Assembly (NCBI GenBank): GCA_964016885.1
Contig: OZ024751.1
Coordinates: 45,074,001 to 45,138,000 of the forward strand
Source of the DNA: Eledone cirrhosa
Lineage: Eukaryota
Length of the DNA: 64,000 nucleotides
Reading direction: 5' to 3'
Positions 50,665 to 55,023 of this stretch are shown here, one piece after another. The translations under genes and the position numbers were made by a program. The notes beneath the pieces are model-generated. The model saw only the letters and a list, made by a program, of their open reading frames with translations. It searched no databases and had not been told where the DNA came from. The first letter of the stretch is position 1. The number at the start of each line of letters is the position of its first letter.

Positions 50665-50725
<61 letters not shown>

Positions 50726-50878
50726 ATAAATGCTCTGAAATAGCGATATATATGTGAATATAGACATAGAATATTCGAAAATATTCTGTATGTTTATAAT
50801 AAACATTTTGAAGACCTAATCGCTATAGAATAGAATACGTCACGTATTACAATTAGATTCTCGATAAAAGCAAGGGAA

Positions 50879-50921
50879 GTAATCTACGCGTTTCATTCTT
50901 GTTAGAATTCATCAGGACCAC
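50879..50921 (-). ncRNA. Type I hammerhead ribozyme, first of 6 minus-strand copies (every 310 bp to 52429-52471)
   Basis: Exact reverse complement of the motif at 52688-52730. Confidence 0.85.
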
Positions 50922-52687
50922 ATATCCAGTGCTTTTATCGAGAATGACACAGCTAGAGACTTATAGAATACTTAGCTGTGTACAGGAACTGGTTTGAAAG
51001 AGCGGTTGCCGGTCCGGCAGAAATTAGAAATTGGAATAAATGCTCTGAAATAGCGATATATATGTGAATATAGACATAGAATATTCGAAAATATTCTGTA
51101 TGTTTATAATAAACATTTTGAAGACCTAATCGCTATAGAATAGAATACGTCACGTATTACAATTAGATTCTCGATAAAAGCAAGGGAAGTAATCTACGCG
51201 TTTCATTCTTGTTAGAATTCATCAGGACCACATATCCAGTGCTTTTATCGAGAATGACACAGCTAGAGACTTATAGAATACTTAGCTGTGTACAGGAACT
51301 GGTTTGAAAGAGCGGTTGCCGGTCCGGCAGAAATTAGAAATTGGAATAAATGCTCTGAAATAGCGATATATATGTGAATATAGACATAGAATATTCGAAA
51401 ATATTCTGTATGTTTATAATAAACATTTTGAAGACCTAATCGCTATAGAATAGAATACGTCACGTATTACAATTAGATTCTCGATAAAAGCAAGGGAAGT
51501 AATCTACGCGTTTCATTCTTGTTAGAATTCATCAGGACCACATATCCAGTGCTTTTATCGAGAATGACACAGCTAGAGACTTATAGAATACTTAGCTGTG
51601 TACAGGAACTGGTTTGAAAGAGCGGTTGCCGGTCCGGCAGAAATTAGAAATTGGAATAAATGCTCTGAAATAGCGATATATATGTGAATATAGACATAGA
51701 ATATTCGAAAATATTCTGTATGTTTATAATAAACATTTTGAAGACCTAATCGCTATAGAATAGAATACGTCACGTATTACAATTAGATTCTCGATAAAAG
51801 CAAGGGAAGTAATCTACGCGTTTCATTCTTGTTAGAATTCATCAGGACCACATATCCAGTGCTTTTATCGAGAATGACACAGCTAGAGACTTATAGAATA
51901 CTTAGCTGTGTACAGGAACTGGTTTGAAAGAGCGGTTGCCGGTCCGGCAGAAATTAGAAATTGGAATAAATGCTCTGAAATAGCGATATATATGTGAATA
52001 TAGACATAGAATATTCGAAAATATTCTGTATGTTTATAATAAACATTTTGAAGACCTAATCGCTATAGAATAGAATACGTCACGTATTACAATTAGATTC
52101 TCGATAAAAGCAAGGGAAGTAATCTACGCGTTTCATTCTTGTTAGAATTCATCAGGACCACATATCCAGTGCTTTTATCGAGAATGACACAGCTAGAGAC
52201 TTATAGAATACTTAGCTGTGTACAGGAACTGGTTTGAAAGAGCGGTTGCCGGTCCGGCAGAAATTAGAAATTGGAATAAATGCTCTGAAATAGCGATATA
52301 TATGTGAATATAGACATAGAATATTCGAAAATATTCTGTATGTTTATAATAAACATTTTGAAGACCTAATCGCTATAGAATAGAATACGTCACGTATTAC
52401 AATTAGATTCTCGATAAAAGCAAGGGAAGTAATCTACGCGTTTCATTCTTGTTAGAATTCATCAGGACCACATATCCGATTAGGTCTTCAAAATGTTTAT
52501 TATAAACACACAGAATATTTTCGAATATTCTATGTCTATATTCACATATATATCGCTATTTCGGAGCATTTATTCCAATTTCTAATTTCTGCCGGACCGG
52601 CAACCGCTCTTTCAAACCAGTTCCTGTACACAGCTAAGTATTCTATAAGTCTCTAGCTGTGTCATTCTCGATAAAAGCACTGGATAT

Positions 52688-52730
52688 GTGGTCCTGATGA
52701 ATTCTAACAAGAATGAAACGCGTAGATTAC
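52688..52730 (+). ncRNA. Type I hammerhead ribozyme, first of 7 plus-strand copies (every 310 bp to 54548-54590)
   Basis: gtggtc CTGATGA attct-aaca-agaat GAAA cgcg TA gattac; GUA cleavage predicted after 52724. Stem I is extended by ttctcgataaaagca/tgcttttatcgagaa. Confidence 0.88.
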
Positions 52731-55023
52731 TTCCCTTGCTTTTATCGAGAATCTAATTGTAATACGTGACGTATTCTATTCTATAGCGATTAGGTCTTCA
52801 AAATGTTTATTATAAACATACAGAATATTTTCGAATATTCTATGTCTATATTCACATATATATCGCTATTTCAGAGCATTTATTCCAATTTCTAATTTCT
52901 GCCGGACCGGCAACCGCTCTTTCAAACCAGTTCCTGTACACAGCTAAGTATTCTATAAGTCTCTAGCTGTGTCATTCTCGATAAAAGCACTGGATATGTG
53001 GTCCTGATGAATTCTAACAAGAATGAAACGCGTAGATTACTTCCCTTGCTTTTATCGAGAATCTAATTGTAATACGTGACGTATTCTATTCTATAGCGAT
53101 TAGGTCTTCAAAATGTTTATTATAAACATACAGAATATTTTCGAATATTCTATGTCTATATTCACATATATATCGCTATTTCAGAGCATTTATTCCAATT
53201 TCTAATTTCTGCCGGACCGGCAACCGCTCTTTCAAACCAGTTCCTGTACACAGCTAAGTATTCTATAAGTCTCTAGCTGTGTCATTCTCGATAAAAGCAC
53301 TGGATATGTGGTCCTGATGAATTCTAACAAGAATGAAACGCGTAGATTACTTCCCTTGCTTTTATCGAGAATCTAATTGTAATACGTGACGTATTCTATT
53401 CTATAGCGATTAGGTCTTCAAAATGTTTATTATAAACATACAGAATATTTTCGAATATTCTATGTCTATATTCACATATATATCGCTATTTCAGAGCATT
53501 TATTCCAATTTCTAATTTCTGCCGGACCGGCAACCGCTCTTTCAAACCAGTTCCTGTACACAGCTAAGTATTCTATAAGTCTCTAGCTGTGTCATTCTCG
53601 ATAAAAGCACTGGATATGTGGTCCTGATGAATTCTAACAAGAATGAAACGCGTAGATTACTTCCCTTGCTTTTATCGAGAATCTAATTGTAATACGTGAC
53701 GTATTCTATTCTATAGCGATTAGGTCTTCAAAATGTTTATTATAAACATACAGAATATTTTCGAATATTCTATGTCTATATTCACATATATATCGCTATT
53801 TCAGAGCATTTATTCCAATTTCTAATTTCTGCCGGACCGGCAACCGCTCTTTCAAACCAGTTCCTGTACACAGCTAAGTATTCTATAAGTCTCTAGCTGT
53901 GTCATTCTCGATAAAAGCACTGGATATGTGGTCCTGATGAATTCTAACAAGAATGAAACGCGTAGATTACTTCCCTTGCTTTTATCGAGAATCTAATTGT
54001 AATACGTGACGTATTCTATTCTATAGCGATTAGGTCTTCAAAATGTTTATTATAAACATACAGAATATTTTCGAATATTCTATGTCTATATTCACATATA
54101 TATCGCTATTTCAGAGCATTTATTCCAATTTCTAATTTCTGCCGGACCGGCAACCGCTCTTTCAAACCAGTTCCTGTACACAGCTAAGTATTCTATAAGT
54201 CTCTAGCTGTGTCATTCTCGATAAAAGCACTGGATATGTGGTCCTGATGAATTCTAACAAGAATGAAACGCGTAGATTACTTCCCTTGCTTTTATCGAGA
54301 ATCTAATTGTAATACGTGACGTATTCTATTCTATAGCGATTAGGTCTTCAAAATGTTTATTATAAACATACAGAATATTTTCGAATATTCTATGTCTATA
54401 TTCACATATATATCGCTATTTCAGAGCATTTATTCCAATTTCTAATTTCTGCCGGACCGGCAACCGCTCTTTCAAACCAGTTCCTGTACACAGCTAAGTA
54501 TTCTATAAGTCTCTAGCTGTGTCATTCTCGATAAAAGCACTGGATATGTGGTCCTGATGAATTCTAACAAGAATGAAACGCGTAGATTACTTCCCTTGCT
54601 TTTATCGAGAATCTAATTGTAATACGTGACGTATTCTATTCTATAGCGATTAGGTCTTCAAAATGTTTATTATAAACATACAGAATATTTTCGAATATTC
54701 TATGTCTATATTCATATATATATATATATATATATACACATACACAACATAAATGATTGTTATTTATGTTGTATTATAACTGATATTTTACATTGAGCTA
54801 CTTATCTTACTGGTAATCGGGTAATATACAATATTACCCTTATCTGATTTATATTTTTATATATAAATATAACTATTACTATATATATATATGTCTGTAT
54901 GTGTGTCTGTGTGTGTGTGGGGGGGGGGGTATATATATATATATATAGTTTAGTGAGGTTTTTTATATGAAATCGTGTTATTAATTCTGGCAATATTACG
55001 CAAATATGACCCTCCCCAAGTAT

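What the first reader, a model, noticed from the sequence alone, without database searches (positions are those of the whole stretch)
50721..54714. Back-to-back tandem arrays of a 310-nt hammerhead RNA: candidate retrozyme circular RNA integrated by twin rolling reverse transcription
Seen: about 5.7 monomers with the ribozyme on the minus strand and about 7.2 with it on the plus strand, 13 hammerheads in all, virtually identical by eye and with no ORF in the track. Both RNA-sense 3' ends point outward and fuse to (TA)n, the right one at a TA-rich spot of the monomer (tatattca|tatata). Known: metazoan non-LTR retrozymes are few-hundred-bp tandem repeats with type I hammerheads that yield circular RNAs, and Penelope-like elements (PLEs) carry minimal hammerheads and insert with inverted 5'-truncated copies. 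Inference: a 310-nt circle was reverse transcribed for several laps from both ends of one break in (TA)n, probably by a PLE enzyme, and the two cDNAs were joined at 52477/52478. I do not recall this twin-array form being described, but cannot verify that.
Basis: partly seen in the sequence, partly recalled or inferred. Interest (0 to 1): 0.93.

Follow-up and report, generated by a model that had tools for sequence, protein, structure and literature searches.

The report
Back-to-back ribozyme circle insertions
This is one copy of a young jumping-gene family whose 310-letter self-cutting RNA was apparently copied round and round into DNA from both ends of a chromosome break, leaving back-to-back arrays that record how Penelope-type enzymes may insert circular RNAs.

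Summary
Real, and not a one-off. The window holds 5.67 minus-strand and 7.22 plus-strand laps of a 310-nt type I hammerhead unit (2 mismatches), joined at 52477, TA runs outside. The genome has 17,872 intact cores, roughly 1,600-1,900 loci. Of 80 loci examined (chosen samples), 72 are the same back-to-back twin; 12 of 17 in a position-ordered sample. New: 69 of 70 twins have one outer end at unit position ~164 and the other at ~129, the 35-nt Penelope 'tail'; inner joints are random; both arms share the haplotype in 55 of 57 (9% by chance). So arrays were inserted ready-made from one RNA. Best reading: a non-LTR retrozyme circle reverse-transcribed for many laps from both ends of a break by a Penelope-like enzyme (0.6). 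Main rival: fold-back copying of one cDNA. Not shown: RNA, cleavage, circles, the partner enzyme. Retrozymes and Penelope inverted/tailed insertions are published; this combination was not found in nine searches. The scan noted a similar, ribozyme-free array in another genome.

The parts
50620..50719 (.). left (TA)n-rich flank, presumed target
   Evidence: sequence; TA run within 14 nt at 138 of 142 outer ends
50720..52477 (-). left arm: 5.67 laps of the 310-nt unit, RNA-sense 3' end outward at unit position 164 ('long' end), 6 hammerhead cores
50720..50754 (-). 35-nt 'tail' (unit positions 130-164) present at this end only
   Evidence: one-long-one-short rule in 69 of 70 twins
52477..52477 (.). 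inner joint: 5' ends of the two arms (unit positions 267 and 62), 1-nt microhomology
52477..54714 (+). right arm: 7.22 laps, 3' end outward at unit position 129 ('short' end), 7 hammerhead cores, 2 mismatches in the innermost lap
53035..53344 (+). reference monomer, numbered from the base after the predicted cut (position 0)
52974..53062 (+). one type I hammerhead with long stem I; core 53004-53034; helix III is one pair closed on a palindromic loop (ACGCGU); predicted cuts after 52724, 53034, 53344, 53654, 53964, 54274, 54584 and, on the minus strand, 3' of 50885, 51195, 51505, 51815, 52125, 52435
53093..53206 (+). unit positions 58-171: stem-loop plus both end sites; best-conserved part in the sister family (78-82% against 67% overall); candidate enzyme-binding and initiation element (inferred)
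54715..54737 (.). right (TA)n flank

Best explanation
A very young non-autonomous non-LTR retrozyme family mobilised by a Penelope-like (PLE) RT/GIY-YIG enzyme. (1) Shown: arrays of a 310-nt hammerhead unit sit in (TA)n at about 1,600-1,900 sites, mostly as back-to-back twins with one outer end at ~164 and one at ~129, random inner joints and one haplotype per locus. (2) Inferred from structure: multi-lap transcripts self-cleave as double hammerheads, because helix III forms only between neighbouring units, so the ligated monomer circle resists re-cutting; ligation by a host ligase is taken from the retrozyme literature. (3) Inferred: the PLE enzyme binds the 58-171 element of one circle, cuts both strands of a (TA)n target, and the two 3'-OH ends prime reverse transcription at the two start sites 35 nt apart; each RT circles the template for up to 20+ laps by strand displacement, together or one after the other. 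(4) Inferred: the two first-strand cDNAs are joined 3' to 3' by microhomology end joining (0-5 nt, sometimes templated inserts) and each templates the other's second strand; when only one end is extended a single arm results.
For: Polarity: minus-then-plus in 72 of 72 twins, the geometry of two cDNAs grown from the two 3'-OH ends of one break. Ends: 69 of 70 twins long+short; 36 of 36 picked by a long end had a short partner and 16 of 16 picked by a short end had a long partner; the commonest short end (129, 21 of 36 after correcting for haplotype letters) has only 1 nt of homology to TA, so looks protein-defined. The purified anole PLE cuts and extends both strands, starts RT internally at two sites bounding the tail, and is predicted to be a dimer (PMC11167929). 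One template: same haplotype in both arms in 55 of 57 twins against 9% for arms of different loci; 17 carry a haplotype unique in the sample, indels included. Monomer bottleneck: locus-private variants fixed in every lap; 52 of 56 single-lap variant positions not repeated in register in the other arm; no single-lap indel at the cut site in about 766 crossings apart from 2 alignment artefacts. Not simple fold-back: inner phases independent (4 of 48 within 10 nt, 3.25 expected), short-end arm longer in 32 of 69, L073 arms differ in register. Microhomology mean 1.65 nt against 0.76 simulated. Ribozyme: dimer transcript's lowest-energy fold is the double hammerhead; compensatory pairs against the sister family, 10 of 29 pairs, 0 of 500 shuffles on the score. 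ORF-bearing PLE twins in this genome show the same long+short ends (L125, L126, L130).
Against: No RNA, cleavage or circle data. No autonomous PLE sharing sequence with the unit was found in the 25 GIY-YIG loci examined (of 150 listed, 10,596 candidates). Two single-lap variants are shared in register by both arms (L081, L103), which a monomer circle cannot give without later conversion. Arm lengths barely correlate (Spearman 0.22, p 0.07), so two RTs in lockstep need later trimming. Absence of fixed variants from the 12 core positions is not significant (0 of 25 positions, p 0.18). The covariation rests on essentially two related families. In the anole system unprocessed RNA was the main substrate and hammerhead cleavage was dispensable. 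Rfam HH9 match is 21.5 bits against a gathering score of 52.
Confidence: 0.6

Rival explanations
1. Fold-back: one multi-lap cDNA is primed at the long site, folds back and copies itself; the endonuclease resolves the product at the tail boundary; later asymmetric deletions at the unstable palindrome centre randomise the joint and the arm lengths. Still needs a circle or multimer for the laps.
For: Explains the shared haplotype trivially and the 2 in-register shared variants. Self-priming was proposed for PLE head-to-head structures (PMC3846280) and endonuclease resolution for the tail (PMC8557442). Short PLE twins in the window have near-palindromic centres (around 47420 and 61890). Duplicated joints at L039 and L050 show template switching at the centre.
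Against: A copy cannot exceed its template, yet the short-end arm is longer in 32 of 69 twins, by up to 10 laps; joint phases are independent; L073 right arm lacks a variant carried by laps 1-4 of the left arm; single arms end at the short site in 5 loci (L094, L098, L105, L172, L174); in vitro both tail boundaries are RT start sites.
Confidence: 0.17
2. Same twin priming, but on long uncleaved linear transcripts of existing arrays; no circle is copied.
For: Two in-register shared variants (L081, L103); unprocessed RNA is the main substrate for the anole PLE in vitro; most tested Xenopus retrozyme dimers did not cleave (1 of 9).
Against: Cannot fix new variants in every lap of both arms (17 of 57 twins have a haplotype unique in the sample) nor regenerate length over generations; 52 of 56 single-lap variant positions are unshared. 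That last test is void if those variants are mostly assembly errors or later mutations.
Confidence: 0.12
3. A short PLE-derived twin inserts first and each arm then expands locally by unequal exchange into a satellite (the scenario of the 2026 preprint), or arrays are copied at DNA level by a DNA circle.
For: Proposed for animal retrozymes. Long arrays show within-array repeats of variants (L062, L063, L085, L091), so some exchange occurs.
Against: Would need parallel expansion of both arms at more than a thousand nearly identical loci (0.38 single-lap variants per kb); the older sister family, with more time, has arms of about one lap (within 3-kb loci); fixed polarity to the ribozyme strand and fixed ends point to an RNA template.
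Confidence: 0.06
4. The RNA template is as described but the enzyme is a LINE (for example RTE-like) rather than a PLE.
For: No sequence link to a PLE was found; LINE-type frames are present in the genome (L034, recalled resemblance).
Against: No poly(A) or shared LINE 3' tail; internal start sites, a 35-nt one-sided tail, near-obligate inversion and (TA)n targets are PLE marks.
Confidence: 0.04
5. Fold-back chimeric reads or mis-assembly.
For: No raw read across the joint was seen (one search gave short-read contigs only).
Against: 72 different joints, non-palindromic centres, two different unique flanks and a strict long/short end rule cannot come from read fold-back; TA-joined ends at positions 138 and 169 also occur in contigs of run X1, which may or may not be independent of the assembly.
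Confidence: 0.01

Closest known systems
Metazoan non-LTR retrozymes (coral, mussel, axolotl; PMC7229834; PMC7761336; bioRxiv 10.64898/2026.07.22.740005)
   Same: 150-450-bp non-coding tandem unit, low GC, one type I hammerhead per unit; helix III of one pair on a palindromic tetraloop as in axolotl HHR_Amex1, and a U.U pair at the base of helix II in the majority haplotype as in HHR_Amex2; circle-to-multimer cDNA by a PLE was proposed there.
   Different: Those texts describe head-to-tail repeats only: 'inverted' occurs 0 times in PMC7229834 and only in reference titles in the other two. No fixed ends, tail or (TA)n target is given, and the PLE link rests on co-occurrence and pLTR similarity. 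Here the link is the insertion footprint, without pLTR similarity found.
Penelope-like elements, EN+ (Penelope/Poseidon, Neptune, Nematis, Naiad; PMC8557442, PMC3846280, PMC4209133, PMC11167929)
   Same: Inverted 5'-truncated copy head-to-head, 30-40-bp tail at one end, (TA)n preference, two internal RT start sites, hammerhead near the 3' end; paired opposite-strand hammerheads 100-700 bp apart were noted in Schistosoma.
   Different: No ORF; each arm is many perfect laps instead of a partial tandem; the tail is not merely optional but complementary (exactly one per twin, 69 of 70); centres are not palindromic.
LINE-1 twin priming
   Same: Two target ends prime on one RNA and the cDNAs are joined by microhomology, giving an inversion.
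   Different: L1 primes once at poly(A) and once internally on a linear RNA, so arms cover non-overlapping parts and inversion is the minority; here both primings are internal at fixed sites and both arms copy the same unit repeatedly.
Newt satellite 2 / Schistosoma and cricket hammerhead satellites (as cited in PMC7229834 and PMC4209133)
   Same: Transcribed tandem units with dimer-dependent hammerheads.
   Different: Described as satellites; no twin insertion anatomy in the passages seen.

Membership tests
non-LTR retrozyme | tandem unit of 150-450 bp, GC below 50% | tested here: met
   310 nt, GC about 0.34-0.35
non-LTR retrozyme | type I hammerhead in every unit | tested here: met
   13 cores in the window; 17,872 in the genome, control 0
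non-LTR retrozyme | non-coding, no LTR structure | tested here: met
   longest frame 59 aa in an arm; no tRNA; PBS/PPT were not searched for specifically
non-LTR retrozyme | dispersed, recently mobile copies | tested here: met
   1041 exact long-end/(TA)n joints, control 0; 0.38 single-lap variants per kb
non-LTR retrozyme | expressed as linear and circular monomer RNA | not testable with these tools
   needs Northern/RNase R or raw RNA reads
non-LTR retrozyme | self-cleavage | not testable with these tools
   folding only
non-LTR retrozyme | target site duplication when present | tested here: inconclusive
   hidden by (TA)n; no empty allele among held loci
type I hammerhead ribozyme (class) | core CUGANGA, GAAA, UH around helices I-III, helix I open | tested here: met
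   helix I and II pairs at probability 0.85-0.99 in the circle; helix III only between units
type I hammerhead ribozyme (class) | compensatory changes in helices | tested here: met
   6 of 14 distal stem I pairs and 3 of 5 helix II pairs change on both sides; slid controls far lower; two related families only, proximal stem I not counted
Rfam Hammerhead_HH9 (RF02275) | gathering score 52 bits | tested here: not met
   21.5 bits, E 0.0047
PLE-type insertion (works like) | inverted 5'-truncated copy joined head-to-head | tested here: met
   72 of 80 loci; 12 of 17 in position order
PLE-type insertion (works like) | 30-40-bp tail at one end | tested here: met
   164 versus 129 = 35 nt; 69 of 70 twins
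PLE-type insertion (works like) | (TA)n or AT-rich target | tested here: met
   138 of 142 ends; 56 of the 60 end-picked loci's ends were selected on TA at one side
Penelope-like element (member) | ORF with RT and GIY-YIG endonuclease | tested here: not met
   no ORF; such ORFs lie elsewhere in the genome
non-autonomous PLE derivative | sequence homology to the pLTR of an autonomous PLE | tested here: inconclusive
   none in 25 of 150 listed GIY-YIG loci; the two hits (L111, L115) are neighbouring cousin insertions

The most novel reading that the evidence does not exclude
These loci are a genome-scale record of a covalently closed RNA circle being reverse-transcribed in rolling fashion by both subunits of one Penelope-like enzyme, each primed by one end of the same break at its own fixed start site. 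One mechanism would then account for all three unexplained PLE marks (tandems, inversion, one-sided tail) and give direct evidence that retrozyme circles are the templates that enter the genome.
Probability: 0.45. Interest if true: 0.88.

Novelty: new variant of a known kind. Interest (0 to 1): 0.72.

Why it matters
How retrozyme circles get back into genomes, and how Penelope-like elements make their tandem, inverted and tailed insertions, are both named as open questions in the papers read. This family supplies more than a thousand near-identical, independent insertion products with countable laps and natural barcodes, which already argue against local satellite expansion and simple self-priming, and it defines a 310-nt substrate with two predicted start sites for an in vitro test. 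A processive, double-ended circle-to-DNA insertion reaction would also be of interest as a genome-writing chemistry. The family adds about 5.5 Mb of long perfect inverted repeats to this genome (17,872 x 310 nt), a possible source of dsRNA and instability.

Tried and rejected
RNA evidence: no RNA holder listed; the four runs laid were contigs of unknown kind, so nothing follows about expression, starts or circles. The single 340-nt circular contigs in X3, X5, X6 are what a tandem DNA array also assembles into, so they were not used as evidence for a circle. Partner enzyme: blastn and a profile of the 58-171 region found no link in 25 GIY-YIG loci; none of 30 sister loci had a PLE frame within 1.5 kb; a wider survey of PLE 3' ends was left undone, so the partner is open. 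Empty sites: none among held loci. Selection on the core from within-family variants: not significant. Clustering of variants near the joint: none (p 0.47). The count of 1216 for the 129-end pattern was not used as a locus count because a 130C>T haplotype matches it in every lap. Rfam microRNA hits are TA-repeat noise. End-to-end jumping on linear monomers was judged unlikely because the cut site is crossed without scars (that jumps leave scars is recalled from R2 work). An antisense hammerhead, as viroid-like replicons have, was not found. First two versions of the arm-mapping script were confused by the stem I inverted repeat and were replaced. Rows dropped before counts: L055 and L059 joint artefacts, deletions of 20 nt or more at arm 5' ends (alignment artefacts), the 25-30 nt next to each joint, second elements in L037 and L087; L040, L063, L109 from arm-length counts. 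Literature: searches gave no description of twin multi-lap retrozyme arrays; most subscription papers are not in the library, and supplements (Fig. S9 of PMC7229834, the preprint's tables) were not seen.
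Full report
Observation. Numbering the 310-nt unit from the base after the predicted cut (window 53035 = position 0), the left arm runs 50720-52477 on the minus strand (5.67 laps, no mismatch) and the right arm 52477-54714 on the plus strand (7.22 laps, mismatches at 52509 and 52563); base 52477 fits both. 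There are 13 hammerhead cores, no frame over 59 aa within an arm and no tRNA. The RNA-sense 3' ends point outward into (TA)n, at unit position 164 on the left and 129 on the right.

The ribozyme. Helices I and II form with pair probabilities 0.85-0.99 in the circular fold. Helix III is one A-U pair around CGCG, unfavourable alone (+5.0 kcal/mol), but the six letters ACGCGU are palindromic and the lowest-energy fold of a two-unit transcript is the double hammerhead. This is the dimer-dependent type described for axolotl HHR_Amex1 (PMC7229834 section 15) and argued to allow cleavage in multimers but not in monomer circles (PMC4209133 passages). Rfam gives only HH9 at 21.5 bits, below its 52-bit gathering score. 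An older sister family exists (2742 pattern matches; 314-nt unit, 212 of 318 columns identical). Against it, 10 of 29 named pairs change on both sides, 0 of 500 shuffles reach the covariation score and slid controls are far lower; this rests on two related families. Variants fixed across a locus fall at N7, loop II, helix I wobble positions and position 10.1, and at none of the 12 core positions, but 0 of 25 is not significant (p 0.18).

A genome-wide family. The unit has 17,872 intact cores (9060 plus, 8812 minus; control 0) and 1041 exact joints of position 164 to (TA)n in a 3.0-Gb genome. From 17 loci in the first 31 Mb of C1 and from the share of long ends that match the exact pattern I estimate 1,600-1,900 loci. 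I examined 80 loci: the window, 19 best hits, 40 of the 100 listed long ends and 20 of 21 listed short ends lacking an exact long partner up to 140 Mb. 72 are minus-then-plus twins, 4 single arms between TA runs, 1 abuts other sequence, 3 are unresolved (a gap; two arms over 20 laps). These samples are chosen; in position order 12 of 17 are twins, 3 single, 1 ambiguous, 1 gapped. No plus-then-minus pair was seen.

The end rule. Of 70 twins with both ends in view, 69 have one long end (156-171, 52 at 164) and one short end (117-138), none two long or two short; L040 ends in a SINE-like stretch. 36 of 36 picked by a long end had a short partner; 16 of 16 picked by a short end had a long one. The long end is left in 36 of 70. 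Among the 36 unselected short ends, 21 are at 129, 10 at 138, 3 at 127, 2 near 132. The 35-nt difference is the PLE tail: 30-40 bp, often at one end only, beside an inverted 5'-truncated copy and a microsatellite bias (PMC8557442 passages; PMC3846280 passages). For the anole PLE the two tail boundaries are the two internal RT start sites, both strands are cut and extended, and a dimer is predicted (PMC11167929 parts 1-2 of 4). 8 of 9 sister twins with both ends follow the rule at homologous positions, as do the ORF-bearing PLE twins L125, L126 and L130. One short twin of another family in the window (9650-10137) has two short ends, so the rule is not absolute across families. PLE frames with RT, a CX4CXXC finger and C-terminal GIY-YIG (Neptune/Nematis layout) are present and young (938 aa in L120), but none of the 25 loci examined shares sequence with the unit.

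One template, inserted ready-made. In 55 of 57 twins with both arms over 1.1 laps the arms share the majority haplotype, against 9% for arms of different loci; there are 23 haplotypes, 17 unique to one locus, some with indels repeated in every lap of both arms. A new variant can become fixed in all laps only through a one-unit bottleneck, which is what a monomer circle gives. Single-lap variants (0.38 per kb) are not repeated in register in the other arm in 52 of 56 testable positions; the 4 shared are two events (L081, L103) that count against a pure monomer-circle model and need a multimer template, fold-back or later conversion. The cut site is crossed about 766 times without a single-lap indel (2 artefacts set aside). 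Inner joints are spread evenly round the unit (96 ends, KS p 0.13), are not enriched at the cut site (2 against 3.7 expected), and carry 0-8 nt microhomology, mean 1.65 against 0.76 simulated; several carry templated inserts or a duplicated joint.

Twin priming or fold-back. Both give this polarity. Fold-back predicts palindromic centres and a short-end arm no longer than the long-end arm. The two inner positions are independent (4 of 48 within 10 nt, 3.25 expected; KS p 0.99), the short-end arm is the longer in 32 of 69, including this locus, and L073 has a variant in laps 1-4 of one arm and in none of 7 laps of the other. Fold-back survives only with extensive later deletion at the centre, which long palindromes can undergo (recalled). 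I give twin priming on a circle 0.6, fold-back 0.17, linear multimer 0.12, local expansion or DNA-level copying 0.06, another enzyme 0.04, artefact 0.01.

What is not shown. Transcription, cleavage, circularisation, the target before insertion and the partner enzyme. Contigs of run X1 contain the family's variants and TA-joined ends at 138 (9 contigs) and 169 (1); X1 may be the assembly's own sample. The host looks like an octopod from its SINE-like repeats; that is recalled and untested.

Comparison and novelty. It meets every sequence-level criterion for a metazoan non-LTR retrozyme and lacks the RNA-level tests; it is not a PLE, having no ORF, but inserts like one. That circles are copied into multimers by a PLE RT is a published proposal (PMC7229834 discussion; PMC4209133; PMC7761336 passages); a 2026 preprint (parts 1-3 of 5 read) supports the PLE link by co-occurrence and pLTR similarity and favours local amplification for the tandems. 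Nine searches found no account of twin multi-lap retrozyme arrays, of the one-long-one-short rule, or of haplotype sharing between arms; supplements and most subscription papers were not seen. Verdict: new variant of a known kind, interest 0.72.

Noticed in passing
window 9650-10137, 33750-34150, 47200-47590, 61640-62085: Short back-to-back remnants of three other PLE-type families with minimal hammerhead motifs, in (TA)n; three have one long and one short end, 9650-10137 has two short ends; two have near-palindromic centres.
   Followed up: partly
L111, L135-L164: Older sister retrozyme family, about 314 nt, 67% identical, 2742 pattern matches, arms of about one lap, longer helix III loop; same end rule.
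   Followed up: yes
L115:500-617: Fragment of a more distant cousin of the 58-171 region, ending in (TA)n (profile E 1.9e-6).
   Followed up: partly
L091:1347-1618: 272-nt insert at the inner joint, 96-98% like a repeat clustered on C25 at 19-24 Mb (39 of 40 scored matches): captured foreign template.
   Followed up: partly
L039:5637-5713; L050:3187-3364: The inner joint occurs twice with a short inverted piece between, a sign of template switching during joining.
   Followed up: partly
L050, L058, L082, L107, L088: One-letter insertions two bases after the predicted cut, fixed in all laps (C in 4 loci, T in 1); they lengthen helix I and might arise at RNA ligation.
   Followed up: no
L062, L063, L085, L091: Variants repeated in 2-3 separated laps of long arms, suggesting exchange within arrays; L062 and L085 arms exceed 20 laps.
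   Followed up: partly
L120, L121, L125, L128, L130; L123, L124, L126, L131; L122: At least three PLE families with RT and C-terminal GIY-YIG frames, the first with nearly identical copies and hammerhead-like motifs with an altered core.
   Followed up: partly
runs X3, X5, X6: Each holds one 340-nt contig that is exactly one circularly closed unit, 1-2 letters from the window's, under three other organism labels at depth 12-34; relatives, contamination or RNA cannot be told apart.
   Followed up: no
window 30303-31349 (-): 349-aa open frame resembling a Tc1/mariner transposase (resemblance recalled, not scanned).
   Followed up: no
window 8462-8938 (+); 55150-55800 (+): A frame like the C-terminal end of a non-LTR retrotransposon protein, and a decayed DNA-transposon-like stretch right of the array (recalled resemblance).
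   Followed up: no
window 166-4386, 4668-7830, 16115-18828, 27140-28455, 35633-39116: Other large tandem arrays with units of 58, 3, 31, 49 and 41 bp.
   Followed up: no
L034:5351-9901; L040:5255 onward: L034's single arm abuts SINE-like sequence with a LINE-like frame beyond; L040's right arm ends in a SINE-like repeat instead of (TA)n.
   Followed up: partly
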